From the NCBI GenBank assembly GCA_025935195.1, contig JAICVS010000004.1, forward strand, positions 107 to 64,106: a stretch of DNA of 64,000 bases, written 5' to 3'. Shown one piece after another: positions 1,062 to 53,429 of this stretch. How positions within the stretch are numbered: position 1 is the stretch's first letter; each line of letters starts with the position of its first letter. The notes beneath the pieces are model-generated. The model ran no database searches. It was not told the DNA's origin and saw only the letters and a program-made list of their open reading frames with translations. The position numbers and the translations under genes were made by a program. Source of the DNA: Ktedonobacterales bacterium (lineage in GTDB: Bacteria > Chloroflexota > Ktedonobacteria > Ktedonobacterales > JADMIN01).

Positions 1062-1280
1062 GTTGCCGCTCCTCACTTTTCGGGCCTACTGCCCGGTAAT
1101 CCGCTTGACGCCGCTCCCGTCGCGGCGCACACTATGGGCATCGTGAAGCCGCGCCGCGCCGGACGTGTCACGTACAGCATACGGCACGGCGGCCGGCCGA
1201 TGGCATCCCCCCGCGCGTCTCATGCCGGGCGCATGAGCTATGCTGTCGTGCTGATTGTCTGGATCAAAGGAGACCGCTCA

Positions 1281-1514
1281 GTGGACGTTACGATCACCTA
1301 CTGCCACACCTGAAACTACCAGCCACATGCCGTCAGTTTGGCGGATGAGCTTCTGAACACCCTTGGCCGGCGGCTCACGGGTGTGACGCTGCGGATCGGC
1401 CAGCGTGGCGACTTCGAGATCGTCAGTGATGGCGAGCTGATCTTCTCGAAGCAGCAGTTGGACCGCTTCCCCAACGCGGGCGAGATCGTGCATCTGCTGC
1501 GCACGCGCGGCTGA
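1281..1514 (+). CDS. Rdx/SelW-like thioredoxin-fold protein with in-frame TGA (candidate selenocysteine, C-H-T-U motif)
   Basis: GTG 1281 follows AAAGGAGA (1266-1273). The reading is VDVTITYCHT-TGA(1311-1313)-NYQPHAVSLADELL...GDFEIVSDGELIFSKQQLDRFPNAGEIVHLL, ending at TGA 1512-1514. The frame stays open through the TGA, which occupies the second redox position of the CxxC/CxxU motif. Confidence 0.7.
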
Positions 1515-1636: not shown

Positions 1637-1891
1637 ATGGGTACGCGCACGATCACCATCGAATACCCGGACGAGCTGCTCCATGAGACCGACGAGCGGC
1701 GGCTGGCCGCGCTGGCGCGTGAGGCGTTCGTGGTGAAGCTGTACGAGCAAGGGCTGATCGGTTCCGGGAAGGGCGGTGGGTTGCTGAGCATCACGCGCTG
1801 GGATTTTCTAGACCTCCTGGGTGCGTACAACGTCTCCTACTTCGACGAGGATATGGACCTGGGCGAGGAGATGCGGATTGCTCAGCCCTAA
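1637..1891 (+). CDS. UPF0175-family antitoxin-like protein
   Basis: GAGGAGG (1622-1628) precedes ATG 1637. The sequence ...ALAREAFVVKLYEQGLIGSGKGGGLL... fits UPF0175 proteins that pair with PIN/DUF3368 toxins. Confidence 0.75.
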   Translation: MGTRTITIEYPDELLHETDERRLAALAREAFVVKLYEQGLIGSGKGGGLLSITRWDFLDLLGAYNVSYFDEDMDLGEEMRIAQP

Positions 1892-2363
1892 TCCGGTCAT
1901 ATCCAACACCACGCCGCTCATATCGCTGGTAGGAGTAGGCTTGCTTGACCTGTTACATTCCCTTTACGCCGAAATCTGGATCCCGCCGCAAGTTCTCAAT
2001 GAGTACAATGCGGGTCGCCAGCGGCACGTGTACGCACCAGACCTTGCCGCGTTGCCGTGGATTTTGGTGCGGCCCGCGCAAACACATCCCGCCGTCCCGC
2101 CCACGCTTGATCCGGGCGAAGCCGCGGCGCTCTCACTTGCTATCTCCTTCCATGCGCGATTCGTGCTTCTCGATGAAGAGAGGGCGCGGAAAGTCGCGGT
2201 TCGGCTGGGCTTGCCCGTCACTGGCTCGCTTGGCGTCTTACTTCAAGCGAAACAGCCTGGTCTCGTCCCACTGGTCGCGCCCATCATAGAGGCGCTGATC
2301 GCCCAGGGGCGGCGCATTGGTCCGCAACTACGTGCGCGCATCCTCGCTCAGGCTGGGGAATGA
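1878..2363 (+). CDS. PIN-like nuclease (DUF3368-type) toxin
   Basis: The N-terminus ...VISNTTPLISLVGVGLLDLL... and LDPGEAAALSLA are typical of DUF3368/PIN. It overlaps the upstream UPF0175 gene by 14 nt. The TTG start at 1878 is uncertain. Confidence 0.7.
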   Translation: MLSPNPVISNTTPLISLVGVGLLDLLHSLYAEIWIPPQVLNEYNAGRQRHVYAPDLAALPWILVRPAQTHPAVPPTLDPGEAAALSLAISFHARFVLLDEERARKVAVRLGLPVTGSLGVLLQAKQPGLVPLVAPIIEALIAQGRRIGPQLRARILAQAGE

Positions 2364-7959: not shown

Positions 7960-10332
7960 TCACCCAGCCCCGCCCATGCGGAACCTGAGATCGTAGCTCA
8001 CAATGAAGTCGAGCTGCTCAGTGCTGAATCCGTAACCATGGGCGAGCGCGCGATCAATCTCGTCAATGATCGGCTTGCAGCGCGCCACGTCGAAGTTGAT
8101 CTCGTCGGTCGCGATGCGCGCGCCGCGCCGCCGGCGCGTCGCCGCTCCGCCACTCAGCGCGACCCCCAGCTCCGACCAGAGCGCGGCAAACGTGCCAGTG
8201 TCCGCGCCGTCAAGATCGAAGACGGGCAGGCCCACCACCTCGCGCGCCACCACATCCATGCAGTTCGAGTGGACGATCCACCACCAATAAAAGAGCTGGC
8301 TGCTCAACAGGCAGCCCACCAATGGGACCAGGCGCGCGGGAACGCGCAACTCTTTGTAGTGCGAGGAGAGCCGGATCGGCAGCGCCTTGCGCCAGTAGCG
8401 CCCGCCAGAGTGGTAGTAGATCGCCGTCCCATCGCTCGTCACATACTCGCCCAGGACATGCCCATGTGCCAACAGACGCCGCAGCAGCTCCACCTCGGCT
8501 GCGCTGCCGATCTTCGGGTAAGGACCGGGCAGACGCCGTGCGTCGTGCGGCACCTGTACGTACGCCAGTCGTTGGAAGAGGGTCGCCCGCTCGGCCGGGT
8601 CCGCGCTACGCCAGCGGTGGTAGGCGGTGCTGAAGATGGAAGCCTCGTCCGTCCGCTTCTCCAGCAGCGTAATGGTCAGGTTCATATCCACGCCCGGAAA
8701 GAGCTTGGCCGGCCGTGTGGCGAAGTGGCTGTGCCACTGCGGATAGCCCGTGTAGAGCGCCCGCAGCGACGCCATCCCCTCGGTCGAGACCGACGCGATA
8801 GGCACGATCATGCCCATCCGCCCGCCGGGTCGCAGCAGGTCCAGCGCGCGCTCGACGACCATCGCGTACAGATTGCCCGCCGCCCGTGTCCGATAGCCGC
8901 GCAGTGGGTCCGCGTCTCGCCTCGCATGGTAGCGAACGTACGGCGGATTACCGATCACCACGTCGAAGCCGCCGCGGTCGCGCATCACCCCTGGAAACAC
9001 CGCAGGCCAATGCAGCGACTGACCCTCCCCGCCAGGCTCCATAGCTCCCACAGGCGGTGTATCATCCGGGCGGACACGGCCGGCCAGCGCATCACCCGTA
9101 TGGATGTTGAGGCGGATGTCTTCGATGCCCGACAGCGCATCCGCAGGGCGGCCCGCCTGTGCGTCACCAGCGCGGACCACGAGCAGCAGGCGCAGGCGCG
9201 CGACCATGGTCGCCTCGCCGTCCAGATCCACCCCATGCAGGTTGCGAGTAACGATCGTGCGCGCGGCGAAGCGCCTCGCGCCGCCCATCCGCTCGCTCTC
9301 GTTCAGGATTGCCTGGAACGCGCCGGAAGGTCCGCCGGATTCCATCTCCGCCATCTCCGCCATACGCCGCGGGCAGGCGGCGTAGAGCGGCGCGAGAACA
9401 CGCAGCGCGCCGGCGAGAAAGGCGCCCGTGCCACAGGTGGGATCCAGGATGGTGATATTCGTCAGCGACCGCCAGAAAGCCAGCAGCAGCGCCGGATCGT
9501 CGCAACGCTCCACCACATCGCGGGCGAGGCCGACGAGATCGAGGTTTGCCGTCACCAGATCGTTGATAGAGTGGTGGTCTGGCGCCTCACGCAACAAGCG
9601 CCATACCAGGCCATCACGTGCGAACGCTGCGGGGTAGGCCTCATGGACGCTGTCCAACAGAGCGGGCACAATCGTATTGGCGGCGATATAGCCGGTGATG
9701 TCATCGGCGGTGTAGTGCGCGCCCAGGTGGCCGCGCGCGCCACCCGGCGCCAGCACGTAGCTGAGCGCAGCGGGTGTGATCGCGTCCACCGCCGGCTGTA
9801 TTTCATCAAGCTGCCAGCGGTAGGCGTCGCAGAACGCGAAGAGCCGGACGAACGCGGCGTCCGCGATATCCAGGTCAACACAATCCCGCTCCACCTGACA
9901 CGCCGCCAGCGGCTCGGCAAGGCTTCGCGGCAACCGGATAGGCGCATCTGTCATCCAGGCGTCCGAACACTCATATATCGAATCGCCCGCGCGGAACAGT
10001 GGCAGCAGCACACGGCGATAGAAGCCGCTGGACGCGGAGCTGTCGCTCTCGTCGTGGATGTGGTCGAGCTGGTGGCGCAGATAGTCCGTATCGCCAGCGA
10101 GCAGCCTCGCTCGCTGCAAGAAATAGCCGACCAGCACGCGCAGCAGCACCAGTGCGCCAACCCGCTCGCGCTCATGGGCCGTCAGCCCGCCGTCAATTGC
10201 TCCGAGCAAGTGGATACGCTCTTCACGCAAACGCGCCGCGAAGTCCCCGCGCGCGCGCGTGCCGCCGCTCGTCGTGCGCGCCGCCGCCCGCGGCCGGCCA
10301 GCGCCGCCGCGTGGCGCGGGAAGAGCTTGCAT
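7960..10332 (-). CDS. Eco57I/type IIG-like N6-adenine DNA methyltransferase
   Basis: Motif I is ILDPTCGTGAFL, motif IV is VIGNPPYVRY, and GAHYTADDI lies upstream. A C-terminal TaqI-like specificity-type region is present. The start is taken at ATG 10332 (MQALPAP...); the longer track ORF would run into the divergent thioesterase gene. Confidence 0.85.
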   Translation of the reverse strand: MQALPAPRGGAGRPRAAARTTSGGTRARGDFAARLREERIHLLGAIDGGLTAHERERVGALVLLRVLVGYFLQRARLLAGDTDYLRHQLDHIHDESDSSASSGFYRRVLLPLFRAGDSIYECSDAWMTDAPIRLPRSLAEPLAACQVERDCVDLDIADAAFVRLFAFCDAYRWQLDEIQPAVDAITPAALSYVLAPGGARGHLGAHYTADDITGYIAANTIVPALLDSVHEAYPAAFARDGLVWRLLREAPDHHSINDLVTANLDLVGLARDVVERCDDPALLLAFWRSLTNITILDPTCGTGAFLAGALRVLAPLYAACPRRMAEMAEMESGGPSGAFQAILNESERMGGARRFAARTIVTRNLHGVDLDGEATMVARLRLLLVVRAGDAQAGRPADALSGIEDIRLNIHTGDALAGRVRPDDTPPVGAMEPGGEGQSLHWPAVFPGVMRDRGGFDVVIGNPPYVRYHARRDADPLRGYRTRAAGNLYAMVVERALDLLRPGGRMGMIVPIASVSTEGMASLRALYTGYPQWHSHFATRPAKLFPGVDMNLTITLLEKRTDEASIFSTAYHRWRSADPAERATLFQRLAYVQVPHDARRLPGPYPKIGSAAEVELLRRLLAHGHVLGEYVTSDGTAIYYHSGGRYWRKALPIRLSSHYKELRVPARLVPLVGCLLSSQLFYWWWIVHSNCMDVVAREVVGLPVFDLDGADTGTFAALWSELGVALSGGAATRRRRGARIATDEINFDVARCKPIIDEIDRALAHGYGFSTEQLDFIVSYDLRFRMGGAG

Positions 10333-10520
10333 GAAGCCTCGCTGGGTGCGGCACCCTATGAGAGACGAACGGCGCGACGCTGGCGGAGCGCGCTGACAAC
10401 TATAGCGGCCGCGCCTGCCACCAGGCAAACGCCCCACATAGTGTACAACGCAACGCATGGTACACTGCCCGCGACGCGGCGATAGTTGGGCCGCACATGT
10501 AGGGTGCGTGACGACGAGGG

Positions 10521-11006
10521 ATGGCGCGAATGGACCAGCGGGCCTTTCAAGACGATCTGGCGGCAACGGGCTTCGAGCACTGCTGGGGCTGCGGCGTAGC
10601 GAACAAGCATGGCCTACGCCTGCGCAGTTTCTGGGAGGGCGACGAGGCGGTCTGCCACTGGCAGCCGCAGCCATACCACATCGCCGCGCCGGGCGCGGTC
10701 AGCGGTGGCATCCTGGCAACGCTGATAGATTGCCACTGCGCCGCCACGGCGGTAGCGACGGCATACCGTGCGGAGGGGCGCACCATCGGTACGGGCGAGC
10801 CGATCCGCTACGTCACCGCCTCGCTGGAAGTGACCTACCTGCGCCCAACACCGCTTGGGCCGCTGACGCTGCGCGCTCGCCCTGGCGAGGTCGCCGGCAG
10901 GAAGATGACCGTCAGTTGCTCAGTCTATGCGGCGACGGGCGAGGAGTGCGCACGCGGCACGGTCGTCGCGGCGCGCGTGCCGGCGACATGGCGAGCCAGC
11001 GCATAG
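10521..11006 (+). CDS. PaaI-family (hotdog-fold) thioesterase
   Basis: ...HWQPQPYHIAAPGAVSGGILATLIDCHCA... and the length of about 160 aa are typical of PaaI/YbdB thioesterases. Confidence 0.8.
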   Translation: MARMDQRAFQDDLAATGFEHCWGCGVANKHGLRLRSFWEGDEAVCHWQPQPYHIAAPGAVSGGILATLIDCHCAATAVATAYRAEGRTIGTGEPIRYVTASLEVTYLRPTPLGPLTLRARPGEVAGRKMTVSCSVYAATGEECARGTVVAARVPATWRASA

Positions 11007-16626: not shown

Positions 16627-17466
16627 CTATGGGATGAGGAGACGGCGCGGCGTGGTGGGGGAGACGCCGACGCGGCGCAGCATGGCGTCGTGCGCCTGCC
16701 ATTCGAGGGTGTCGTCGAGGGGGGGAAGGAGACGCGCCGCTTCTGACGCGCCGTAGCGGCGGGCGAGCGCGAGCGCGAGCAGGTGATCGGCCAGATGGGG
16801 GTTCTTGGGCAGCAGCGAGCCGTGCAGGTAGGTGCCGTAGGCGTTGTGGACGACGCATCCCTCGCGGGCGTCTTCGCCGTTGTTGCCGAAGCCGGAGAGG
16901 ACAGCGCCGAGCGGCCGCGCATTCGCGCCCAGGTAGGTGCGGCCGCCGTGATTCTCGAAGCCGATCAGGGTCGTTTCGTTCCAGCGCAAGGCGACGTTGC
17001 CGACGCAGCGCGCGACACGCTTGCCGGGGTGGATCGTCCAGGCGTCGAAGATGGCGGCGCCTTGTAGCTCCGGCCCCTCGGCGGGGCGATAGAAGCGAGC
17101 GAGCAGTTGGTAGCCGCCACAGACGGCCAGCAGCGGCACGCCGGCCTCCACGGCGGCGCGCAGTGCCGGGCCTTTGCGCTCGCGCAGGTCGCGGGCGATG
17201 TCTTCCTGTTCGCGGTCCTGGCCGCCGCCGATGAAGAGCAGGTCGTAGGCGGCGGGGTCGAGCTGGTCGCTGGCGCCGATGGGGGCGATCTCCAGGGCGA
17301 TGCCGCGCCAGGCGCAGCGGCGCTGGAAGGTGAGAATGTTGCCGCGGTCGCCGTAGACGTTGAGCTGATCGGGGTAGAGGTGGCCTAAGCGCAGGGTCGC
17401 GGCCGGATGCGCGGCGGTTTCGCCCGCCGTGCTTGGTTCATGGTTTGTCTCGCCCGTCTCACACAT
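16627..17466 (-). CDS. gatD: lipid II isoglutaminyl synthase, glutaminase subunit GatD (CobQ-type GATase)
   Basis: LRLGHLYPDQLNVYGDRGN..., VCGGYQLL (catalytic Cys) and ...GFENHGGRT... are typical GatD motifs. It is linked to murT. The ATG 17466 start has a weak RBS. Confidence 0.85.
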   Translation of the reverse strand: MCETGETNHEPSTAGETAAHPAATLRLGHLYPDQLNVYGDRGNILTFQRRCAWRGIALEIAPIGASDQLDPAAYDLLFIGGGQDREQEDIARDLRERKGPALRAAVEAGVPLLAVCGGYQLLARFYRPAEGPELQGAAIFDAWTIHPGKRVARCVGNVALRWNETTLIGFENHGGRTYLGANARPLGAVLSGFGNNGEDAREGCVVHNAYGTYLHGSLLPKNPHLADHLLALALARRYGASEAARLLPPLDDTLEWQAHDAMLRRVGVSPTTPRRLLIP

Positions 17467-17594
17467 CTTGCTTGCCTTATACCGAATCGGGTTGATCGCC
17501 CGCGCGGCCGTGAATGGCCGGCGAACGGGGCGGGTGGGCAGGAATGCCCGTGCCGGACGCCAACGCTTCAGCAACGCTTCAGACGAATCCGTTG

Positions 17595-18071
17595 TCAGAT
17601 GGGCACTGGCGCATTCACCAGGCGATGGAGTGTCTCCCAAAAGGAGGTTCCATTGGGCGCTTGCCAGGAAAAGCCATCATGCCCGCCATCGGAGTAGGTA
17701 AGTTCAAGCGCCTGGCAGCCTATCGCATCGCTGGTCGCCACCGCTGTCTGGATTCCCAGACGGGAGCAGGTGAGCTCGTACCGGTAGTAGGGTGCATTCG
17801 ATGGAATAGACGGACACGATGATATTGCGCCCTCAGGAATGTGCGTTCCCGACACCAGTTGCGCATAAATCTGGCCGGCCACGTCCCCAACATGTTGATC
17901 GAAGACGATGGTCTGGCTGCCAGCCGGTGGTTGGATGCGCGTCACCACGATATGGGCATGATCCGGCGCACGGCGAAAGACCGCCGCGCCCGCCTTGCCC
18001 GCGCCCACGAGGACGGCCGCCAGCGCAACCAACCCCACGATTGTAACGATCACACGCCGTTTCCGCGTCAT
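17595..18071 (-). CDS. hypothetical exported/membrane-anchored protein
   Basis: GAGG precedes ATG 18071. The N-terminus has an RKRR motif followed by a hydrophobic helix (signal/anchor). No family recognised. Confidence 0.7.
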   Translation of the reverse strand: MTRKRRVIVTIVGLVALAAVLVGAGKAGAAVFRRAPDHAHIVVTRIQPPAGSQTIVFDQHVGDVAGQIYAQLVSGTHIPEGAISSCPSIPSNAPYYRYELTCSRLGIQTAVATSDAIGCQALELTYSDGGHDGFSWQAPNGTSFWETLHRLVNAPVPI

Positions 18072-18120
18072 GGAGATACCTCAGGTTCAGCAACGATTTC
18101 AGAATCAGACCAATCCGGTG

Positions 18121-19632
18121 TCATACATCGCGCTGCTCCCAGTAGTGGGGCGCGTAGCCGCGCCGCTCCAGCGCGCCGCGCACGGCCAACATCGCCGTGT
18201 AGGTCGGCACGATGTAGAGAGTTTCGCCGGCTGGCGTCGCCTGGACGGCGTGCCAGAGCGCGGCGGCGATCTCCGGCTCGATGTGGGTGGCGCTGGCTCC
18301 TGCATATTTGAGGCGCAGGCCCAGATCGAAAGCGCGCGTGCCGGTGGCGGTGATCTGGGCGCCTGTGCCGGCGAGCCGCTCCAGGTCGGCGTCCCAGATC
18401 CACGAGACATCTTCGCCGTCGGCGGGCAGATCGCTGAGCGCCAGCAGCAGGTGGGCCGCGCGGGTGTGCGTGCCGAGGGTGCGCAATACCTCGTTCAGCC
18501 CGGTGGGGTTCTTGGCGAGCAGGATGCGCACCGTGCGCCCGTCCACGTCTATGCGCTCCGCGCGGCCGAAGGCGGGGGCGAACGCGCCGAGCGCCGAGGT
18601 GATCGCATCGGCGCCGATGCCCATCGCCAGCGCGGCGGTGCTGGCGGCGAGCGCGTTGTAGACGTTGTAGAGGCCGGGCAGGGCGATGCGCGCCTCACGC
18701 TCGCCATCCGGCAGACCGAGCAGGAAGCGCGTGCCGTCCAGTCCGTCCGGCACGATTGCGCGCGCCGTCACCTGGGGCGCGGGGCGGGCGTAGCCGCAGG
18801 CGGGGCAGGCCCAGTGGCCGATGTGGCTGTAGTAGCGCTGAGTGAAGGTGAGTGGGGCGCGGCAGCGCGGGCACGAGCGGGCATCCATCACGTCCACGCG
18901 CTCGCGGTCGTCCTCGCTGTTGTCGGTGTCGCCGTCCGCTGTATCCTGTACGCCGAAATAGCGCACGGGGCCGGCGCGGAAGCCGTCGCCCAGCGCCGCC
19001 ACCGAGGGGTCGTCGGCGTTGAGCGCCAGCGTGGTGGCGCCACGCAGCGTGGCGAGAGCGGTGCGCCAGCGTTCCGCGACGGTGTCCACTTCGCCGTAGC
19101 GGTCGAGCTGGTCGCGGAAGAGGTTGGTGATGGCGATCACGCGCGGCTGGAGCGCGGCCACGACGTGCGGGAAAGCCGCCTCGTCCACCTCGAAGACGGC
19201 CGCCGCGTCGCCGCGGCGGCGCAGATTGCCATGCGGGCGCGCGCGGATCACCAGCGCGGCCGTCACACCGCGCAGCAGGTTCGCGCCCTCGCGGTTGCGC
19301 CAGACGCGCAGCCCGCCCGCGCGCAGGGCATAGGCCGTCAGCCCGCTGGTGGTGGTCTTACCGTTGGTGCCGGTGATGACGACGCTGCCGTGACGGAGCT
19401 GCGCGCCGAGGCGCGCGGTGATGGCGGGGTCTATGCGGCCGGCGACCAGCCCCGGCAGGCTCGTGCCGGCGCCCAGCCGCAGCCGCCGCGCCAGCGCGCC
19501 CGCTCCACGGCCGCCGATTACGGCGAGCGCGGCCCGCCCACGGCTGAGGGCGCCGCGCTCGGTCACAACTGCCTGGTCTGATGCGCTCATCGTGTCCGCT
19601 ATGTTTGGTGATGTGCGACTGGATGTGCTCAT
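18121..19632 (-). CDS. murT: lipid II isoglutaminyl synthase, ligase subunit MurT (Mur ligase family with Cys4 ribbon)
   Basis: ITGTNGKTTT is a Mur-ligase P-loop. CPRC...CPAC is the zinc ribbon typical of MurT, and a DUF1727-like C-terminus is present. The ATG overlaps the cheA stop (ATGA at 19629-19632). Confidence 0.9.
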   Translation of the reverse strand: MSTSSRTSPNIADTMSASDQAVVTERGALSRGRAALAVIGGRGAGALARRLRLGAGTSLPGLVAGRIDPAITARLGAQLRHGSVVITGTNGKTTTSGLTAYALRAGGLRVWRNREGANLLRGVTAALVIRARPHGNLRRRGDAAAVFEVDEAAFPHVVAALQPRVIAITNLFRDQLDRYGEVDTVAERWRTALATLRGATTLALNADDPSVAALGDGFRAGPVRYFGVQDTADGDTDNSEDDRERVDVMDARSCPRCRAPLTFTQRYYSHIGHWACPACGYARPAPQVTARAIVPDGLDGTRFLLGLPDGEREARIALPGLYNVYNALAASTAALAMGIGADAITSALGAFAPAFGRAERIDVDGRTVRILLAKNPTGLNEVLRTLGTHTRAAHLLLALSDLPADGEDVSWIWDADLERLAGTGAQITATGTRAFDLGLRLKYAGASATHIEPEIAAALWHAVQATPAGETLYIVPTYTAMLAVRGALERRGYAPHYWEQRDV

Positions 19633-22600
19633 GGAACGCTCGCTGGCTCCGCTATGAGCGCGCGCACCGTCTCGATCAGTGTTTCCGAGGGGCAGGGCTT
19701 GATCAGATACGCCGCGGCGCCCAGTTGGCGCGCGTGCTCGCGGTGCTGTTCGCCGGCGCGCGAGGTGAGCATCACCACACGGGTTCCGGCGAATTGCGGC
19801 GAGCCGCGCAGCACCGACAACAGCTCGAAGCCGTCCAGCCGGGGCATCTCGATATCCAGCACCAGCACGCGCGGCGGCCGCTCCAGCATTTTGCCGAGCG
19901 CCTCGATGCCGTCGGACGCCAGCTCGACGTCGAAGCCAGCGCGACCCAGCGCGAGGTCGAGCGAGCGGCGGATCGAGACGGAATCATCCACGACCAGCAC
20001 GTGCGGGGCCAATGGAGCGGCCAGCCGCGGCAGCGGGCGCAAGCGCGGTGCGTGTGTGGGCCGGCGGCCTTCGAGTTCGCTGGTGACCAGCTCTACCAGA
20101 TCCAAGAGGAGCAACAGCCGCCCATCGGGTGTGACGGTCGCGCCGCGGACGGCGTGGCGGCGCAGGTGCGGCGGCAGCGTGCGCACGATCACCTCGGAAT
20201 CCTCGGCTACCGCATCCACCAACACAGCCGCGCGCCCGCGCCCGGCCTCCACCAGCAGCGCGAGCTGTGGATCGCGCAACTCCTGCTCGAAGCCGAGCAG
20301 CTCGGCCAGCGGCAGCACGGGAATCTCCTCGTATGCCGCGCGCTCACCACTGAGGGCAAGCCCGCCCGGCGCCTCGACACGGGTGCGCAGCGCCGTGCGC
20401 TCCCCCACTCCGCGCGCGCCGTCCACACGCTCGACCGAGGCCAGCAGTTCGGTGGATGCGAGCGAGAGCGTCTGGCGCACGGACGAGAATGGCACGGCGT
20501 ACTCCTGGCCGCCCGCGTACACGTGCAGCGCATGCGCCCCACTGAGCGAGATCGGCACGCGGATGCGGAAGACGCTGCCTCGCCCGCTCTCGCTACGCAC
20601 GTGGATGGCGCCTTTCATGTGCGTGATGTCCGTGCGCACGGCATCCAGGCCGATGCCGCGGCCGCGCCGCGCGTCGGCCACGTCCACGGTGGTGATACCT
20701 GGCAGAAACATGAGGTCGAGGGCGGCCATCACGCTCAGCGCGTGCGCTTCCTCCGCCGTATAGAGGCGCTGTCTCACGGCTGCCGCCGCCAGCGCGTGCG
20801 GATTCACGCCGCGGCCGTCGTCACCGATCTCGATGGTCACTTCATTGCCAGCGTAATAGGCATGCATCCAGATCGCGCCCGCGGCCGGCTTGCCGGCCTC
20901 TAGGCGCTCTTGGGAGGACTCGATCCCATGCAGGATGGCGTTGCGCACGAGCTGCAGCAGCGGCTCCGCCAGCGCCTCGCTGATGTTGCGGTCGATCTCC
21001 GTGCGCTCGCCACGCACCGTGAAGGTGATCCGCTTGCCTTCGTCGTGCGCCAGGCGGCGAACTTCGAGCTGAAGCCGCGGCACCAGCGTGTCGAGCGGCA
21101 CCAGCCGTAGCTGCATCAGGTCGTGCTGCATCGCCAGCGCGACAGACACTTGATCATCGCTGGCGCGATCCAGCCGGCCCAGCACGCCGCCCATGGCGCG
21201 GCTCGTGGTGCTGACGTCGTCCGTCACCTCGCCCAGCGCGCGGATCGCAGAGTCCAGCTCGCTGATGCGCTCCAGGCGCAGCGCGTCGCGCGGGGTGCCG
21301 TTCGTGAGCGAATCCTGGCCCGGCACGCGGCCGAAGAGCCGGCCCGCGAGCGAGGGCGCGGATGGGGAGCCACTTGCCGGCCAGGCGCCGCCGTTCGTCG
21401 CCGTATGCCCGCCACCGGAGAGCGGGTGCAGGTCCGCGATGCTGTGGCTCAGGTCCGTCAGGCGGGTGATGGATTGTTCCAATTCAGCGCGCAGCCGCGT
21501 CAGCTCGTCGCGTGTCCGCGCCAGTGTCGCCCGCGCGAGCGCGAGCGCGCTGACACGGCCCACGAGGGCGTCCAGGCGATGCACGTCCACACGCAAAATG
21601 GCGTCCGCTTCGGCGGCCACACGCGGATGGCGCGGTGAGGTGTCCGCCTCGGCCGGCGTGAGCGGCTGGGGGAGCGGCGGCGAGCTAGACGGCGCAGTGT
21701 GCTGGATGGCGGGTGCGGGCCGCGTGGGCGCGGCCGCTTCTTCCAGCAGGATGTCACGATACGCGCCGGCCTGTTCTACCAGGGCAGGATCGGCGGGGCG
21801 CTCGGCGGCGGCGGCGTCGAGCGCGAGGCGCAGTAGCTCTTCCAGATGCAGCAAGGTCGAGGTGGCGAGGCTACCCGCGCTCACATGCGGCCATCGCAGT
21901 GCCTTCAGCACATCCTCGAATACCAGCGTCACCGCCGCCAGCACGTCGAAGCCGAGCGTCGCGGCAGTGCCCTTGATTTTGTGGGCGATGTGGGCCATCA
22001 CCTCCAGCGCCGCGCTCTCCTCGGGATGATCCTCGTACTGGAGAAGCCATCGGCGCAGCTCCTTCATATCCTCGGCCGTCTCGACGACAAACAGGCGCTT
22101 CATCTCTGGCGGAATCTCGTCCAGCTCCGCCGCCGTGGGCGCACGCGCTGGAGCGCTCTCCGCTACTGCCGCGCTGGCCGGCGGCTGATAGCTGACGCCG
22201 CTCTCCGCGCCTGCGTCGCTCTCCGCCGCGGGGGCTTCTGTCTCCGCCACCCGCTGTCGCAGGTGTGTGCTCCCGAAGGCAGCGATCAGCGCGCGCTCGT
22301 CCGCGGTCAATACCGGCTCACCCGGCTCCGTATCGGCGGGTGGCGCCACGTTCTCGGTGGCAGGCGTCTGGGTGTGGCGCTCGTCCGCGACTTCCCTGTC
22401 ACTGGCTGGAGCCAGCGACCCAGCCGGTTCGGGTTGATCTGAGACGGCTTGGCCCGGCTGTGGGGCGTCCGCGGAGAAGGCGGCGGCGGTCGGGTGGATG
22501 TACGACGCTATCAGCGGCGCATCCGGCGTGAGCAGCAGCCCGCGCAGGCGTGCCGCCGCCGCGCGCTCGGTCTCGCTGGCGGCCAGCACTTGCTGGTGCC

Positions 22601-22916
22601 GGCCCATCTGGCGCACGCGCCTATTCAGGTAGGTCAGCGCATCGGTGGCGGCGGCCAGCAGCGCCGGCGGCGGGTCGGCGGCGCCCGGATCATCGAAGGC
22701 GCGCGAGAGGGCATGCGCGACCTGGGCGCAATCGGCGGCGCGGAAGCCGGCGCTCAGATCGGCCATTGCCGTCGCCAGCCGCGCCAGCTCGCCAGCGGCC
22801 AGCGCGCGTCGCTCGACGCCGGGCGGGCCGCCCAGGGTGTTGAGGTGACGCTGCGCGACGGGCAGGAGCGCGTGCATCTCGGCAATGTACAGCCCGGCCA
22901 CATCACGGTCATCCAT
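19629..22916 (-). CDS. cheA: hybrid CheA-type histidine kinase with C-terminal receiver domain
   Basis: Domains in order: HPt (AHKIKGTAATLGF), dimerisation region, HATPase_c (HGIES...EIGDDGRGV), CheW-like domain, and REC (VLVVDDS...VLDIEMPRLDGFEL). ATG 22916 overlaps the cheW stop. Confidence 0.9.
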   Translation of the reverse strand: MDDRDVAGLYIAEMHALLPVAQRHLNTLGGPPGVERRALAAGELARLATAMADLSAGFRAADCAQVAHALSRAFDDPGAADPPPALLAAATDALTYLNRRVRQMGRHQQVLAASETERAAAARLRGLLLTPDAPLIASYIHPTAAAFSADAPQPGQAVSDQPEPAGSLAPASDREVADERHTQTPATENVAPPADTEPGEPVLTADERALIAAFGSTHLRQRVAETEAPAAESDAGAESGVSYQPPASAAVAESAPARAPTAAELDEIPPEMKRLFVVETAEDMKELRRWLLQYEDHPEESAALEVMAHIAHKIKGTAATLGFDVLAAVTLVFEDVLKALRWPHVSAGSLATSTLLHLEELLRLALDAAAAERPADPALVEQAGAYRDILLEEAAAPTRPAPAIQHTAPSSSPPLPQPLTPAEADTSPRHPRVAAEADAILRVDVHRLDALVGRVSALALARATLARTRDELTRLRAELEQSITRLTDLSHSIADLHPLSGGGHTATNGGAWPASGSPSAPSLAGRLFGRVPGQDSLTNGTPRDALRLERISELDSAIRALGEVTDDVSTTSRAMGGVLGRLDRASDDQVSVALAMQHDLMQLRLVPLDTLVPRLQLEVRRLAHDEGKRITFTVRGERTEIDRNISEALAEPLLQLVRNAILHGIESSQERLEAGKPAAGAIWMHAYYAGNEVTIEIGDDGRGVNPHALAAAAVRQRLYTAEEAHALSVMAALDLMFLPGITTVDVADARRGRGIGLDAVRTDITHMKGAIHVRSESGRGSVFRIRVPISLSGAHALHVYAGGQEYAVPFSSVRQTLSLASTELLASVERVDGARGVGERTALRTRVEAPGGLALSGERAAYEEIPVLPLAELLGFEQELRDPQLALLVEAGRGRAAVLVDAVAEDSEVIVRTLPPHLRRHAVRGATVTPDGRLLLLLDLVELVTSELEGRRPTHAPRLRPLPRLAAPLAPHVLVVDDSVSIRRSLDLALGRAGFDVELASDGIEALGKMLERPPRVLVLDIEMPRLDGFELLSVLRGSPQFAGTRVVMLTSRAGEQHREHARQLGAAAYLIKPCPSETLIETVRALIAEPASVP

Positions 22917-23559
22917 GGTCGGAGCCGCCTTCCGCAATCGCGTCGAGCAGATCATCCAGTAGCCGCTCGGCATCCAACAGCGCATAGCGCGTGCCGGTGT
23001 GGGCGTGCGCGTAGACGCCCGTCATGTATCGCGCGCGTGGCAGTAGGTTCGCGTCGCTCGCCGCGGGCACGTCCCGCACGTCCTTCGCTTCGACCGCGGC
23101 GATGTCGCCCACTGTGTCCACCACCCAGGTGAGTGAGCGCTCGCCATCGCCCACGACCAGCGCCGTGGTGGCAGCGCGCGCGCCAACCGGTCTGGCTGGT
23201 ACGTCCACCGCCGCCAGATGTTGCCGCCCCAGCAGCATTGGCGCGGGGTCCACCAGCGCCATGATCTCGGATTGCCAGGGGAATACGCCGTGCATCCATG
23301 GCGGGCTGTGTGGCAGGGGAATGGTCTCCGGAGTCGCGCGCATCACCTCGCGCAGCGCCGTGAGCGGCAGCGCGCACGGCACATCCGCGCAGGCAAATAG
23401 CAGGTGTTCGACACCGGCGGCGGGTGCGGGCGAGGCGCTGGCGGTGCGCAGCAGGCGCTCCATCGCCTCGGGCGTGTCGTCCCGCGCCGCGGCAAGCAGC
23501 TCCGCAAGCCCGGACGGCGGCGAGGGAGTTGTCGCGCCGTCCGCCGGCTGATCGCGCAT
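22909..23559 (-). CDS. cheW: CheW-like coupling protein
   Basis: ...LLFACADVPCALPLTALREVM...IPLPHSPPWMHGVFPWQSEIMALVD is a CheW-fold signature. GAGAGGTGA precedes ATG 23559. Confidence 0.8.
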   Translation of the reverse strand: MRDQPADGATTPSPPSGLAELLAAARDDTPEAMERLLRTASASPAPAAGVEHLLFACADVPCALPLTALREVMRATPETIPLPHSPPWMHGVFPWQSEIMALVDPAPMLLGRQHLAAVDVPARPVGARAATTALVVGDGERSLTWVVDTVGDIAAVEAKDVRDVPAASDANLLPRARYMTGVYAHAHTGTRYALLDAERLLDDLLDAIAEGGSDHG

Positions 23560-23685
23560 GCCTATCACCTCTCGGCCTGGATGGCTCGCGGCCATTCATG
23601 GCCGGCGAACGTACGAATGGGGCATACATGCCCAGGTGGCTCGCGGACTGTGAACGTGCCGCTGTGATGGCGCGCTAGCGGCTAG

Positions 23686-36400: not shown

Positions 36401-37990
36401 CTAGGGCGCGGGCGTGTCGAGCGCGGGCAGCTCGATGTAGGCGAAGTGCAGATCGGCCAGCTCCAGCGGCGGGCGGATCAACGGCTGCTCCCAATAGACC
36501 GGCCGGATGAAGCCGGAACCGTGACGCTGGCGCATGGGCGACAGCGCGTAGAGCCACTCTTTGCGCACCGCCGGAGAGCGCGCCGCGTGTGACGACCAGA
36601 AGAGCTGGAAGATGTCTGAGGCGTCAATCAGCTCCATCAGCCGCGGCCCCCAGTAGTCGCCGGAGCGCAGCGAGTCAATGTCCAGGTTGACCGTCAGGCC
36701 CAGCGCGCGGTAGGCGTTGCGGCAGGCCGTCACCACGCGCGTGTCGTCGTGGCTGTAGGAGGCGAAGACCGCGCGCGGCAGCGCCGTCTCGCGCTCGGTG
36801 GCCGGGCGGTGCGCGGCAGGCGACTGCTCGTCCACGGCGCGCTCGTCTACCAGCAGGGCGAACTTGAGGATGGCGACGATCAGCGGGCCGGCGTAGATGG
36901 TGATCTCGCCGGTGGCCGCCGCGCCGGCCAGCTCCGCCTGTGGCCGGAAGCGGAAGTCGGCGCGGTGCAGGTCTTCATCCCAGGAGAGCGAGACGCGCTC
37001 CGGGTTGAAGCGCACGGCGGCGCAGCGTGGCACGATGGTGAGCGCCGTGCCGCGCTCTACGCGCACCTGGGCGGGGGCGCTGGCGGTGCGCGGCCGCTCG
37101 CCCAGCTCGGGGGCGAAGCGCGCGGCATCGGCACGGACGGCGGCCAGGACGGTGTCGAGGTGGGCGTAGACCAGGAGTGTCTGCCAGGTTTCGGCGGGGA
37201 CTTCACGCGGATAGTAGGCGGTGAAGGAGAGATGTTCTCGCTCCTGAGTGACGGGAGCGGGTGGAGGTGAGCCTGGCGTGCGGCGGGGGATCACGATCCC
37301 GCGCACGCGCTCGTCGGCCTCGGCCTCAACCGCGGGGGCCGGCTCTGGTGGGGCCATCGAAGCGGCGCCTCCCAGCGGCGGGAAGTCCGGCGTGCCATAT
37401 ACCGCCACCTCATCAGGAGCGCGTTCCTCCTCGCGGGCGGGCCGCGGGGCGGGCGGTGCGGGCGGTGGCGCCCCGCGGCTGGCCCACTCCCCAGATGCGG
37501 GCTGTGGAGCGGGTTGCGCCTGTGGATAGGGTTGATCCCGGCTCTCACCTGGCGGTTGGTCGAATGCTGGATAGCTGCCCCCTCCTGGCGGTGTGGAGGC
37601 CGCTGGATATTCGCCCCATGGTGATGTCGGTGGAGGCGGTGGTGGCGCTCCAGGCTCGGCCCAGGCGGGCGACGTAGCCGGAGGGAGCGGCGGCGCGGCG
37701 GTGCGGACGGCGGCATCGTGCGCCTGGGCCTCGGCGTCGAACGTTCTGGGTGGGGCCGGTGGTGCGCCCCATCCAGTCATCGGTGCGCCCCATTCACCGC
37801 CTCTGGCTTCTTTCGCCGCCGGTTTCCCAGTCGAGGGAGGTGGCGCCGCCTTCCTCGCGCTCGATTGCCGCATCGCCACCAGCAGCAGTGTGGCGATGAG
37901 CAGCAGCGCGAGCACACCCACTATGATCAAGCCAACGAGCAGCGGCAGTGCGAAGTCCGCCAGGGTCGGCCGCGATAGCGCAATCCCCAT
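36401..37990 (-). CDS. membrane-anchored, proline-rich protein with a C-terminal TIR domain
   Basis: GAAAGGGGG precedes ATG 37990. An N-terminal TM helix is followed by about 150 aa of P/A-rich linker and a beta-rich middle domain. The C-terminal VFASYSHDD...DIFQLFWS...SPAVRKEWLYAL matches bacterial TIR motifs. Confidence 0.8.
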   Translation of the reverse strand: MGIALSRPTLADFALPLLVGLIIVGVLALLLIATLLLVAMRQSSARKAAPPPSTGKPAAKEARGGEWGAPMTGWGAPPAPPRTFDAEAQAHDAAVRTAAPPLPPATSPAWAEPGAPPPPPPTSPWGEYPAASTPPGGGSYPAFDQPPGESRDQPYPQAQPAPQPASGEWASRGAPPPAPPAPRPAREEERAPDEVAVYGTPDFPPLGGAASMAPPEPAPAVEAEADERVRGIVIPRRTPGSPPPAPVTQEREHLSFTAYYPREVPAETWQTLLVYAHLDTVLAAVRADAARFAPELGERPRTASAPAQVRVERGTALTIVPRCAAVRFNPERVSLSWDEDLHRADFRFRPQAELAGAAATGEITIYAGPLIVAILKFALLVDERAVDEQSPAAHRPATERETALPRAVFASYSHDDTRVVTACRNAYRALGLTVNLDIDSLRSGDYWGPRLMELIDASDIFQLFWSSHAARSPAVRKEWLYALSPMRQRHGSGFIRPVYWEQPLIRPPLELADLHFAYIELPALDTPAP

Positions 37991-38300
37991 AGATGCCCCC
38001 TTTCGCGCGCGTGCGGATGGGTGATGCGGGTCGCCTGCCCGACCACCCGCGGCAGCATAGCAGGTCGCGCCGGGGAGAGCAAGCACGAGAGGCAGAGGCA
38101 GGCTGGCGCGTGATGGGGTTTTCCACATGGGGACGGACACGCGCCCGCGCGGGGCGGCCGGCGATTGCAATCGCGCCTGGAGGGCCGCGAGGGCCGCGCG
38201 TCGCGGACTGGGAGACGCGACGCGCGGATGGGAACCATTTACAAGCTCTGTGGACGGAGACGTGATCACGTCCCCACTACGTCCCGGCGTCCTCCGCGGT

Positions 38301-44222: not shown

Positions 44223-45425
44223 GCGCCACGTCATCAAGCCGGCTGATCCCCGCTTTGCCGCCCCATTGACTCCGCCGCCTTCGCCTCCAAGAACCTCTAC
44301 AACGCCGCCAACTATGTGGTCCGGCAGTCCTACATCCACGAGGGTGCCTACCTGAACTACCACGAGATGCACCGCCGCATGCAGGACCACGACGCCTACA
44401 AAGCCTTGCCGGCCAAAGTCGCGCAGTGGGTGCTGCGCCTGCTCGACAAGAACTGGCACAGCTACTTCGCCGCCTGCGCGGCCTGGAAAACGGACCCATC
44501 CCAGTTTCTGGGACACCCCAGGTTGCCCGGCTACAAGGACAAACAGCAGGGGCGAAACCTCTTCGTCTACACCATGCAGGCGCTCAGCCTGCCGGCGTTG
44601 CGCGCTGGCCTGATTGTCCCCTCCATGCTGGGCATCACCGTGCGGACCAAGCAGCACAACGTCCAGCAGGTGCGCATCATTCCCCGCATCGGCTTCTATG
44701 TGGTGGAGGTGGTCTATGCGCGTGAGCCGGTCCCGCTAGCCGTGGACCCCGCCCTGCATGCGGGCGTAGATATTGGCTTGAACAATCTGGCGACGCTAAC
44801 TTCAGACAAGCCGGGCTTCGTGCCTCGCATCGTCAACGGGCGGCCAGTGAAGTCCATCAACCAGTTCTACAACAAGCGGCAGGCGGAGGTGCAAAGCCAA
44901 CTGGGAGAGACGCATACGAGCCGGCGCTTGGAGCGCCTCACCACCCGGCGCACCCGGCGGATCGACTGGTATCTGCACACTGCCAGCCGGCGCCTGATTG
45001 ATCTGTTGGTAGCCGAGGGCATCGGCACGCTGGTCATTGGCAAGAACCCGCTCTGGAAGCAGCACGCGCGGCTGGGCCGACGGGGCAACCACAACTTCGT
45101 GAGCGTGCCCCACGCCCGCTTCATCGAGATGCTGACCTACAAAGCCGAATTGGTGGGCATTCAGGTGATCGTGACCGAGGAGAGCTACACCAGCAAGGCC
45201 AGCTTCCTCGATGCGGACCCGCTCCCCGTCTACAACGCCGCCCGTTCCGATCAACCACGTTTTAGCGGGCGGCGAGTGAAGCGTGGGCTGTACCGGGCGG
45301 CGGATAGGCGGCCCATCAATGCCGATGTCAACGGCGCCTACAACATCATCCGCAAAGTAGCTCCTGAGGCGTTCGCGCAAGGGAGTAGAGGGTGCGTAGT
45401 TCCCCCGGTGCGGCTCGCCGCATAA
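44209..45425 (+). pseudogene. tnpB: tnpB (RNA-guided-nuclease family OrfB), disrupted by a frameshift near 44257-44264
   Basis: ATG 44209 reads MQLVERHVIKPADPRFAA and then stops at 44353-44355. The conserved continuation IDSAAFASKNLYNAANYVVRQ…(RuvC-like, zinc-finger region)… lies in the -1 frame (track ORF 44316-45425). Confidence 0.8.
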
Positions 45426-47109: not shown

Positions 47110-47378
47110 GATGGCTCCCTCACTGGACTCGACAAGCGGCGCCGGTCGCTCGTAGTATACCCTGCTCGCTCGCCTAGGTCGGTCCGTCACCTCGCGAGAT
47201 GTGCCACTGGCTCGCTCGTGTCAGACTTTACACGGTTGTCAATGGGGCATCTCCATTCGGCATGCAATGTGCGGGCTTGTGACGGTGTGGCAGATGCCGC
47301 GTGCCGGGCGCGTGCTCCGGCGTGCGGCCACCCTTGGCGCCACGCTCTGAACTGCGTTCCGAACAGGAGGGTCCGTGC

Positions 47379-50081: not shown

Positions 50082-50331
50082 CAGGGGGGTACGCGCCGCA
50101 AGCGGCGCTGTTGAGCTTGTGCCCGCCTGGTTGATCTACGTACACTGAGTGCCGGTCTGCTCATGCCCGCGCTGGTTCCTGACGGCCTATGTATGGGTGG
50201 ATAGCCAGCGCGCCGCGGCATGGCGCCGGCAACCAATCCTGGCCTACGCTATGCGGAGAACATGCGCGGACTGGCACGGGCCACAGGTCTGGCGACCGAC
50301 GATACTCTATAGATAAGCGGAGGCAGAGCAC

Positions 50332-53283: not shown

Positions 53284-53307
53284 TGCCTGTAGAGGGTGGT
53301 TTAAAGA

Positions 53308-53368: not shown

Positions 53369-53429
53369 GCCCGCTCCGCCAGCGCGCATACGCAAGCCCT
53401 GACGAGAGAGAAGAGGGAGAGACAAGACG

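What the first reader, a model, noticed from the sequence alone, without database searches (positions are those of the whole stretch)
1281..1514. In-frame TGA at the CxxU position of an Rdx/SelW-like gene: candidate selenoprotein missed by ORF calling
The ORF track ends a frame at TGA 1311-1313 after ...VDVTITYCHT. The same frame continues without another stop for 66 more codons. The joined product, (V)DVTITYCHT-U-NYQPHAVSLADELL...GDFEIVSDGELIFSKQQLDRFPNAGEIV, has the layout of Rdx-family (SelW/SelT/SelH-like) proteins. In that family the N-terminal beta-strand is followed by CxxC or CxxU, and G-x-F-E-V...DGELI(F/W)SK...RFP follows later. A good RBS (AAAGGAGA) precedes GTG 1281. A second TGA-at-redox-site gene at 48981 shows this is unlikely to be a chance pseudogene. 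I could not confidently identify a bacterial SECIS hairpin by eye downstream of this TGA.
Basis: partly seen in the sequence, partly recalled or inferred. Interest (0 to 1): 0.65.

Follow-up and report, generated by a model that had tools for sequence, protein, structure and literature searches.

The report
SelW-like selenoprotein gene, miscalled as truncated
This is an ordinary member of the well-known bacterial selenoprotein-W-like family: its in-frame TGA encodes selenocysteine and is followed by the expected RNA hairpin, and gene callers cut the gene short, as they often do with selenoproteins.

Summary
GTG 1281 follows a good RBS (1266-1273). TGA 1311-1313 is in frame, and 66 more codons run to TGA 1512-1514. 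The 77-residue read-through product matches Pfam Rdx (73 bits, cutoff 22.6) and TIGR02174 "CXXU_selWTH" on both sides of the TGA. The TGA sits in the second-Cys column of CxxC.

It has a CCGUC/GGCGG stem and an AGUUU loop 21 nt after the UGA, and folds at -8.8 kcal/mol. It meets all four published bacterial SECIS constraints.

The same TGA and hairpin occur in at least 120 genomes from many phyla, with compensatory base changes. The hairpin is largely absent from TGC (Cys) versions of the gene.

A second gene on the contig (48636-49712, TGA 48981) belongs to NCBI's curated "WAxxUGC" selenoprotein family and carries an almost identical hairpin.

Gene callers report only a 58-aa fragment starting after the TGA.

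One test could not be done.

Verdict: a genuine selenoprotein gene of a family known since 2004-2005. It is useful as an annotation fix but not surprising.

The parts
1266..1273 (+). Ribosome-binding site AAAGGAGA, 7 nt upstream of the GTG start
   Evidence: Read directly. It is invariant in all seven related copies, while bases further upstream vary.
1281..1514 (+). Full SelW-like (Rdx family) selenoprotein gene: 77 codons plus stop. Product is fMet-DVTITYCHT-U-NYQPHAVSLADELL...GDFEIVSDGELIFSKQQLDRFPNAGEIVHLLRTRG.
   Evidence: Pfam PF10262 scores 73.1 bits (cutoff 22.6) over residues 3-74. TIGR02174 scores 55 bits (cutoff 34.2). There are no frameshifts or stops in relatives.
1302..1304 (+). 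TGC, Cys8: the first residue of the C-x-x-U redox motif
   Evidence: Nearly invariant Cys column in homologues. It is present upstream of the TGA in essentially all 120 genomic homologues, although the search pattern did not require it.
1311..1313 (+). In-frame TGA read as selenocysteine (residue 11)
   Evidence: It aligns with the second Cys of CxxC in 16 of 29 full-length homologues (W in 11, S in 2) and in PDB 3DEX and 2OKA. It is conserved in close relatives and in at least 120 genomes.
1326..1347 (+). Bacterial SECIS hairpin: CAU(1326-1328), bulged G1329, CCGUC(1330-1334), loop AGUUU(1335-1339), GGCGG(1340-1344), AUG(1345-1347). The loop starts 21 nt after the UGA, and G1336-U1337 are the conserved loop G-U.
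   Evidence: The fold gives -8.8 kcal/mol, z = -2.99, with 2 of 200 shuffles as good. The family-wide core stem (1329-1334 with 1340-1345) shows covariation and is depleted in Cys-codon homologues. The region is invariant in relatives.
1338..1514 (+). The truncated 58-aa ORF (TTG start) that public gene callers report instead of the full gene. It is an annotation artefact and lacks beta-strand 1 and the redox motif.
1512..1514 (+). True stop codon (TGA) of the gene
   Evidence: Read directly. The stop position is conserved in all relatives.

Best explanation
Window 1281-1514 encodes a 77-residue bacterial selenoprotein-W-like (Rdx family) protein with a Cys8-x-x-Sec11 redox centre.

Proposed mechanism: translation starts at GTG 1281, guided by the RBS at 1266-1273. 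When UGA 1311 enters the A site, the hairpin at 1326-1347 of the same mRNA (loop AGUUU, G1336-U1337 exposed) tethers SelB-GTP-Sec-tRNA(Sec). Selenocysteine is then inserted instead of termination, and translation continues to the real stop at 1512. The product is a small thioredoxin-fold protein. Its CxxU motif, at the end of beta-strand 1 and the start of helix 1, cycles between selenol/thiol and selenenylsulfide, so it acts as a thiol-dependent oxidoreductase whose physiological substrate is unknown.

Shown here: the gene structure, family membership, the position of the TGA in the redox Cys column, the presence, conservation and covariation of the hairpin, and its association with TGA rather than TGC.

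Inferred: actual Sec insertion, SelB binding, the redox chemistry, and the presence of selA/selB/selC/selD elsewhere in the genome.
For: Family: Pfam Rdx scores 73.1 bits against a cutoff of 22.6, spanning both sides of the TGA. TIGR02174 'CXXU_selWTH' scores 55 bits against 34.2. PDB Rdx-fold proteins 3DEX and 2OKA align over about 74 residues, with CxxC on C8 and U11.

TGA column: 16 Cys, 11 Trp (probably TGA mistranslated under another genetic code) and 2 Ser among 29 full-length homologues.

Conservation: the TGA is retained in six other assemblies representing three haplotypes. Only 1 variable site occurs in codons 1-25, against 25 of 156 sites downstream (Fisher p = 5e-4). A divergent contig from an independent run has 13 or more differences, all after 1361.

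Family-wide: a DNA pattern fixing TGA-N-Y plus downstream motifs hit at least 120 genomes across many phyla. Essentially all (one apparent exception, L085) show [IV]-x-[YF]-C-x-x upstream, although this was not part of the pattern.

SECIS: the hairpin satisfies loop 3-9 nt (it is 5), stem 4-16 bp (5+3), G in the first two loop positions (AGUUU), spacing 16-37 nt (21), and MFE no higher than -7.5 (-8.8) (model as given in PMC13188914).

Covariation across 117 distinct sequences: 75.3% paired, against 27-50% when the partner is slid; 130 double-sided changes against 44.9 +/- 5.8 in shuffles (0 of 500 reach it).

Cys-codon control: 3.2 of 6 stem pairs form, against 5.3 of 6 with TGA; at least 5 pairs in 23% against 92%; loop U in 27% against 86%; Mann-Whitney p = 5e-14.

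Organism-level support: a second gene on the contig matches the NCBIfam equivalog NF041054 'WAxxUGC' at 377.7 bits (cutoff 300), with its TGA at the U. It has a hairpin of nearly the same geometry: 20-nt spacing, loop CGUGU, -8.5 kcal/mol, z = -2.95.

TGA is also the commonest ordinary stop of the window's genes, so the code is not reassigned.
Against: No selA, selB, selD or tRNA-Sec is found in the window or in sibling contigs. The window is 64,000 of a 64,232-bp contig, so Sec-decoding capacity in this organism is inferred, not shown.

In the window, the family's outermost core pair is a G-A mismatch (1329/1345). The stem reaches -8.8 kcal/mol only with a bulged G, and a wider 71-nt fold is no better than shuffles (z = +0.5).

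Synonymous and non-synonymous counts among close relatives are too few to prove purifying selection (8:5 and 5:7).

The covariation and Sec/Cys comparisons are not phylogenetically corrected, and most of the Cys forms come from other subclades.

The recent review lists prokaryotic SelW-like proteins as 'predicted with high confidence', not experimentally verified (PMC13188914).
Confidence: 0.9

Rival explanations
1. Relic or pseudogene: the lineage once decoded Sec but lost the machinery, or a Cys codon TGC mutated to TGA. The TGA would now terminate translation after 10 residues and the gene would be dead.
For: No Sec machinery could be found in the accessible sequence. Loss of selenoproteins is documented in bacterial lineages (PMC1794560).
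Against: The TGA, the RBS and the hairpin are invariant across three diverged haplotypes, while the rest of the gene accumulates substitutions without any stop or indel. A second, unrelated selenoprotein gene on the same contig is equally intact and has its own SECIS-type hairpin. The TGA state is ancestral and widespread in the family, not a private mutation.
Confidence: 0.04
2. The public gene call is right: the real product is the 58-aa protein from TTG 1338, or nothing is made upstream. The in-frame upstream codons would be non-coding leader that happens to be open.
For: Several pipelines call exactly this 58-aa ORF. Open frames are common at this GC content.
Against: The 58-aa fragment lacks beta-strand 1 and the redox motif that the Pfam profile and the solved structures place at the N-terminus. 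The ten upstream codons match the family consensus [IV]-x-[YF]-C-x-x in at least 120 genomes. A strong RBS precedes GTG 1281 and none precedes TTG 1338, which lies inside the hairpin loop and 3' stem.
Confidence: 0.03
3. The UGA is read through without selenocysteine. This could happen by near-cognate Trp or Cys insertion, or through a lineage-specific reassignment of UGA, and would give a CxxW or CxxC protein.
For: Many database homologues show Trp at this column. Low-level UGA read-through exists in bacteria (general knowledge).
Against: TGA is the commonest normal stop among the window's Pfam-supported genes, so it is not reassigned. Trp at a redox Cys position is chemically pointless, and the W calls are best explained by gene callers switching genetic code on short contigs. 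A conserved, covarying hairpin with a G-U loop at fixed spacing is the signature of SelB-dependent decoding.
Confidence: 0.03

Closest known systems
Bacterial SelW-like (SELENOW-like) selenoproteins, PF10262 / TIGR02174, CxxU motif (PMC1088965, PMC1794560; Table 1 of PMC13188914)
   Same: Same Pfam and TIGRFAM family, same size (about 75-90 aa), same CxxU motif right after beta-strand 1, and Sec encoded by an in-frame UGA with a SECIS hairpin immediately downstream in the coding sequence. The window's gene shares U-N-Y-x-P, G-x-F-E, L-I-F-S-K and R-F-P with at least 120 genomic members.
   Different: Nothing essential differs. The linker between helix 1 and strand 2 is 6-7 residues longer than in most members found (161-nt against 152-nt pattern span). 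One core stem pair is mismatched and compensated by a bulged extension. It falls just below the narrower NCBIfam equivalog SelTWH_Campy (87.4 bits against a cutoff of 88). Host is an uncultured high-GC soil bacterium.
Cys-containing bacterial Rdx proteins with solved structures (PDB 3DEX SAV_2001, 2OKA, 2P0G 'Selenoprotein W-related protein', 2OBK, 2FA8 Atu0228)
   Same: Homologous over about 74 of 77 residues (E = 2e-7 to 1e-5). The CxxC aligns with C8 and U11. They have a thioredoxin-like fold.
   Different: They carry Cys, not Sec, at the second position. Cys-codon family members mostly lack the hairpin. They are longer (103-108 aa as crystallised).
Mammalian selenoprotein W and the Rdx family (SelW, SelT, SelH, Rdx12) (own knowledge; PMC1088965 for the bacterial-eukaryotic comparison)
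   Same: Same fold family and CxxU redox motif, with a presumed thiol-dependent redox role. SelW binds glutathione (PMC1088965).
   Different: Eukaryotic genes use a kink-turn SECIS in the 3' UTR with SBP2 and eEFSec. Here the SECIS is a simple hairpin inside the coding region, about 20 nt after the UGA, as in bacteria.
E. coli fdhF/fdnG SECIS and the general bacterial SECIS model (bSECISearch; PMC13188914 Fig. 2)
   Same: A hairpin directly downstream of the UGA, with a small apical loop exposing G-U and 16-37 nt spacing. All four model constraints are met.
   Different: There is no sequence similarity to the E. coli elements. The SelW-family element is shorter (6-bp core) and its sequence is partly dictated by the conserved A-x-x-L-A codons.

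Membership tests
Rdx / SelW-like family (PF10262, TIGR02174) | Profile match above the curated cutoff over the whole domain | tested here: met
   PF10262 scores 73.1 bits (cutoff 22.6), residues 3-74 on profile positions 2-73 of 74. TIGR02174 scores 55 bits (cutoff 34.2).
Rdx / SelW-like family (PF10262, TIGR02174) | CxxC or CxxU motif directly after the N-terminal beta-strand | tested here: met
   The sequence reads T-I-T-Y-C8-H-T-U11. Cys8 is in a nearly invariant column, and U11 is in the column holding C (16), W (11) or S (2) in 29 homologues. It aligns to CxxC in 3DEX and 2OKA.
Rdx / SelW-like family (PF10262, TIGR02174) | Thioredoxin-like fold | tested here: inconclusive
   Only sequence homology to solved Rdx-fold structures is available (E = 2.3e-7, 74 residues).
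NCBIfam NF041051 SelTWH_Campy (equivalog) | Score at or above the curated cutoff of 88 bits | tested here: not met
   It scores 87.4 bits, just under the cutoff, so I do not file it under this narrower equivalog.
Bacterial selenoprotein gene (SelB-dependent UGA decoding) | In-frame UGA aligned with a catalytic or redox Cys of homologues, with conserved coding sequence on both sides | tested here: met
Bacterial selenoprotein gene (SelB-dependent UGA decoding) | bSECIS model: 3-9 nt apical loop, 4-16 bp upper stem, G in the first two loop positions, 16-37 nt from UGA to loop, MFE no higher than -7.5 kcal/mol (PMC13188914) | tested here: met
   Loop AGUUU (5 nt, G at position 2 followed by U); stem of 5 bp plus 3 bp past a one-base bulge; spacing 21 nt; -8.8 kcal/mol.
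Bacterial selenoprotein gene (SelB-dependent UGA decoding) | Hairpin conserved by compensatory change among orthologues and tied to TGA rather than to Cys codons | tested here: met
   Covariation 0.378 against 0.129 in shuffles, with 130 double-sided changes. Sec forms have 5.3 of 6 pairs and Cys forms 3.2 of 6. Neither test is phylogenetically corrected.
Bacterial selenoprotein gene (SelB-dependent UGA decoding) | selA, selB, selD and tRNA-Sec present in the same genome | not testable with these tools
   They are absent from the 64-kb window and from sibling contigs. The window is nearly the whole contig, and the rest of the assembly could not be reached.
Bacterial selenoprotein gene (SelB-dependent UGA decoding) | Selenium actually incorporated at the UGA position | not testable with these tools
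   This needs 75Se labelling or mass spectrometry.
NCBIfam NF041054 ResA-like WAxxUGC motif-containing protein (second gene, 48636-49712) | Equivalog score at or above 300 bits, and a W-A-x-x-U-G-C motif with U encoded by TGA | tested here: met
   It scores 377.7 bits on the first 255 residues. The motif W-A-S-W-TGA-G-C is read directly.

The most novel reading that the evidence does not exclude
The SelW-like genes of at least ten bacterial phyla share one tightly defined SECIS. It has a 6-bp stem starting 19 nt from the U of UGA and an N-G-U-N-U loop. An unrelated WAxxUGC selenoprotein gene in the same genome uses nearly the same geometry. If this compact element is a general, portable SelB-recognition module across phyla, it could be turned into a covariance model. 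No Rfam family covers it. Such a model could automatically rescue thousands of selenoprotein genes that metagenome pipelines currently truncate or mistranslate as Trp. It would also mark this uncultured soil lineage as a Sec user.
Probability: 0.35. Interest if true: 0.3.

Novelty: new member of a known kind. Interest (0 to 1): 0.15.

Why it matters
The main value is as an annotation correction. The public gene calls for this locus and its relatives report a 58-aa fragment without its active site. In the large protein libraries, many family members are either truncated or carry a spurious Trp at the Sec position. Recognising the full gene, together with the WAxxUGC gene on the same contig, marks this uncultured soil bacterium as a probable selenocysteine user. 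It adds nothing new about how selenoproteins work. The function of bacterial SelW-like proteins remains unknown, and this locus gives no new handle on it.

Tried and rejected
- A fold of 71 nt after the TGA gave no signal (z = +0.5). The MFE picked a competing long-range pairing, and the hairpin only stands out when folded locally or seen comparatively.
- The word-indexed homologue search found only three near-identical truncated calls.
I replaced them with hand-built degenerate DNA patterns.
- My strict no-bulge SECIS scan of all TGAs recovered the 48981 site but missed the SelW hairpin itself. It also gave three weak extras (3665, 13665, 47280), which I judge spurious because of low upstream GC3 or overlap with a gene on the other strand.
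- The Rfam gathering and permissive searches found nothing relevant.
- The promoter and terminator scan of 1000-1700 found nothing.
- I searched for Sec machinery in all sizeable ORFs of the window and for tRNA-Sec in the window and sibling contigs, and found none.
- I tried to learn the organism's identity from cluster metadata, but accessions are not shown. I learned only that the source is a 64,232-bp NCBI MAG contig from soil-type samples.
- I considered and rejected a genome-wide TGA reassignment, because TGA is the commonest ordinary stop here.

Full report
**Observation.** The sequence is as described. The RBS AAAGGAGA lies at 1266-1273 and GTG at 1281. Codons 2-10 encode DVTITYCHT. TGA at 1311-1313 is in frame. 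The frame then stays open for 66 codons to TGA 1512-1514. The ORF lister splits this into a frame ending at 1313 and a 58-aa ORF from TTG 1338. An open frame behind a TGA means little in this 67% GC window. Of 1,478 TGAs, 480 have open frames on both sides. The signal comes from what the frame encodes.

**Family.** With Cys substituted at the TGA, the 77-residue product matches Pfam Rdx (PF10262) at 73.1 bits against a cutoff of 22.6. Residues 3-74 align to profile positions 2-73 of 74, so the ten codons before the TGA are part of the match. NCBIfam TIGR02174 'CXXU_selWTH' scores 55 bits against 34.2. The narrower equivalog SelTWH_Campy just misses (87.4 against 88). Solved bacterial Rdx-fold proteins (3DEX, 2OKA, 2P0G, 2OBK, 2FA8) align over about 74 residues, with their CxxC on C8 and U11.

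**What sits in the TGA column.** An exhaustive HMMER search with the post-TGA part found 93 relatives. I aligned 29 full-length ones with the read-through product. The TGA column holds Cys in 16, Trp in 11 and Ser in 2. Trp exactly at a redox Cys position is best explained as TGA translated under genetic code 4 or 25 by gene callers. That would make those sequences further CxxU genes. This is an inference, but it fits the DNA evidence below.

**Close relatives.** Six contigs from other soil and forest metagenomes carry the same gene in three haplotypes. All keep the TGA, the RBS and the stop, and none has a frameshift or extra stop. Every one was called as the 58-aa fragment. IMG names one sibling fragment 'selenoprotein W-related protein'. 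Variation is strikingly uneven. Only 1 variable site falls in codons 1-25, against 25 of 156 sites downstream (Fisher p = 5e-4). At third codon positions the counts are 1 of 25 against 14 of 52 (p = 0.03). Contigs from independent runs agree. A divergent contig has 13 or more differences, all after position 1361, and there are no indels. Synonymous-to-non-synonymous counts (8:5 and 5:7) are too small to say more.

**Family-wide DNA evidence.** These come from Acidobacteriota, Myxococcota, Desulfobulbia, Planctomycetota, Dormibacterota, Eisenbacteria, SAR324, Alpha- and Gammaproteobacteria and others. In essentially all of them the unconstrained upstream frame reads [IV]-x-[YF]-C-x-x just before the TGA; the one apparent exception is L085. 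So CxxU is the normal, ancient state of this subfamily. This agrees with the literature, which finds few Cys homologues and proposes Sec as the original form (PMC1794560).

**The SECIS element.** Folds of individual homologues show a hairpin at a fixed position. An ungapped alignment of 117 distinct sequences was scored for a stem at alignment columns 23-30 with 36-43.
- 75.3% of cells pair, against 61.4 +/- 0.8% in shuffles and 27-50% when the 3' partner is slid by 1-3 columns.
- There are 130 double-sided compensatory cells, against 44.9 +/- 5.8 in shuffles (0 of 500 reach the observed value).
- The covariation score is 0.378, against 0.129.
- Four pairs show 10-31 sequences changed on both sides.
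- The supported core is six pairs, at positions +19 to +24 with +30 to +35 counted from the T of TGA. The outermost tested pair is not supported.
- The loop is N-G-U-N-U, with G in 99% and U in 86% of sequences.

In the window the element is CAU, bulged G1329, CCGUC, loop AGUUU, GGCGG, AUG, at 1326-1347. It folds at -8.8 kcal/mol with z = -2.99. It meets all four constraints of the published bacterial SECIS model as given in PMC13188914:
- loop of 3-9 nt (here 5);
- upper stem of 4-16 bp (here 5+3);
- G in the first two loop positions (AGUUU);
- 16-37 nt from UGA to loop (here 21), with MFE no higher than -7.5 kcal/mol.

**Control with Cys-codon genes.** The stem lies in conserved A-x-x-L-A codons, so amino-acid conservation could mimic pairing. 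I therefore fetched TGC versions of the same pattern from metagenomes (37 loci, 30 distinct).

| Measure (same register) | TGA forms | TGC forms |
|---|---|---|
| Core pairs formed (of 6) | 5.3 | 3.2 |
| Genes with at least 5 pairs | 92% | 23% |
| Local MFE (kcal/mol) | -10.0 | -5.0 |
| Loop U present | 86% | 27% |

The Mann-Whitney test gives p = 5e-14. The comparison is not phylogenetically corrected, and most Cys forms belong to other subclades. A few Cys forms closest to the Sec subfamily keep the hairpin. Such 'fossil' SECIS elements have been described before (PMC1794560).

**Does this organism decode Sec?** The window holds one tRNA (Leu) and no tRNA-Sec. None of the sizeable ORFs is SelA, SelB or SelD. 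Sibling contigs have no tRNA genes. The window is 64,000 of a 64,232-bp MAG contig, and I could not reach the rest of the genome, so this criterion is untested.

The indirect evidence is good. A second gene at 48636-49712 has TGA 48981-48983 in W-A-S-W-U-G-C. Read through, it passes AhpC-TSA and Redoxin across the TGA. It also matches the NCBIfam equivalog NF041054 'ResA-like WAxxUGC motif-containing protein' at 377.7 bits against a cutoff of 300. [quoted passage not shown] Its TGA is followed by UCUGCC-CGUGU-GGCAGA at 48998-49014. The spacing is 20 nt, the fold is -8.5 kcal/mol and z = -2.95, which is nearly the same geometry as the SelW hairpin. Two intact selenoprotein genes with matching hairpins, both conserved, are hard to reconcile with a lineage that cannot insert Sec. 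TGA is also the commonest ordinary stop among the window's genes, which excludes a reassigned code.

**Mechanism.** I propose standard bacterial Sec insertion. SelB-GTP-Sec-tRNA(Sec) binds the hairpin loop while the ribosome is at UGA 1311. Sec becomes residue 11, forming a Cys8-x-x-Sec11 redox pair at the start of helix 1 of a thioredoxin-like fold. The biochemical role of bacterial SelW-like proteins is unknown beyond a presumed thiol-dependent redox function (PMC1088965). The neighbours give no functional lead. They are a divergent F420-type luciferase-like oxidoreductase and a UPF0175/DUF3368 pair, and synteny holds only among close relatives.

**Comparison with what is known, and novelty.** Bacterial SelW-like proteins with CxxU were the most abundant selenoprotein family in the Sargasso Sea data, with 48 genes (PMC1088965). 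They are one of the 25 families of the 2006 survey (PMC1794560). The 2026 review lists them under 'predicted with high confidence' (PMC13188914) and also stresses that pipelines routinely truncate such genes. This locus is a typical new member. Its only peculiarities are a slightly longer linker and a mismatched outer stem pair. Rfam has no model for the element.

**Verdict.** The finding is real and correctly interpreted, but ordinary. Confidence that this is a functional Sec-encoding SelW-like gene is about 0.9. The remainder covers a relic gene in a genome without Sec machinery, a true stop, or non-Sec read-through.

Noticed in passing
window 48636-49712 (+); TGA 48981-48983; hairpin 48998-49014: A second selenoprotein gene, a ResA/TlpA-like thioredoxin-fold protein with motif W-A-S-W-U-G-C. 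It matches the NCBIfam equivalog NF041054 'WAxxUGC_long' at 377.7 bits (cutoff 300). It passes AhpC-TSA and Redoxin across the TGA, and the C-terminal part has weak TPR hits. A bSECIS-type hairpin UCUGCC-CGUGU-GGCAGA lies 20 nt after the UGA. ORF calling splits it into 115-aa and about 242-aa pieces.
   Followed up: partly
proteins P0005, P0010, P0012, P0017, P0019, P0022, P0042, P0064, P0075, P0077, P0088: Eleven of 29 full-length SelW-like homologues in the large protein library carry Trp exactly at the Sec column. This is most likely TGA translated as Trp by gene callers using code 4 or 25 on short contigs, which would be a systematic mistranslation of selenoproteins in metagenome-derived protein sets. 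I did not verify it at the DNA level for these entries.
   Followed up: no
loci L140, L150, L159 (Cys-codon SelW-like genes): A few TGC (Cys) family members still have the SECIS-type hairpin in register (for example GCTGCC-AGTAT-GGCGG). This suggests recent Sec-to-Cys conversions with a fossil SECIS, a phenomenon already described for other families in PMC1794560.
   Followed up: no
window 47280-47340 (+): The TGA at 47280 immediately precedes ORF 47283-47894 (no Pfam hit) and is followed 26 nt later by a very stable 13-bp hairpin (-22 kcal/mol). The upstream frame has low GC3 (0.59), so this is probably a 5' leader structure rather than a Sec site.
   Followed up: no
window 50317-58101 (+): A compact oxidative pentose-phosphate cluster: a fused transaldolase/phosphoglucose isomerase (988 aa), then 6-phosphogluconate dehydrogenase, G6PD, OpcA and 6-phosphogluconolactonase.
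   Followed up: no
window 1637-2363 (+), 7960-10698 (-), 36401-38341 (-), 44247-45425 (+): Mobile-element and defence-type genes are scattered on the contig. They include a UPF0175/DUF3368 (PIN-like) pair right after the SelW-like gene, an MmeI/Eco57I-type restriction-modification enzyme, a TIR-domain protein of about 645 aa, and a TnpB (OrfB_IS605/Cas12f-like TNB) gene. In some sibling contigs an IS66 transposase replaces the neighbourhood of the antiporter.
   Followed up: no
window 16627-19983 (-), 19629-23595 (-): A MurT/GatD (lipid II isoglutaminyl synthase) pair and a CheA-CheW chemotaxis pair. Together with OpcA, an F420-type oxidoreductase and DUF1707/LiaF, they suggest a high-GC Gram-positive-like or Chloroflexota-like soil lineage. 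Taxonomy could not be determined with the tools.
   Followed up: partly
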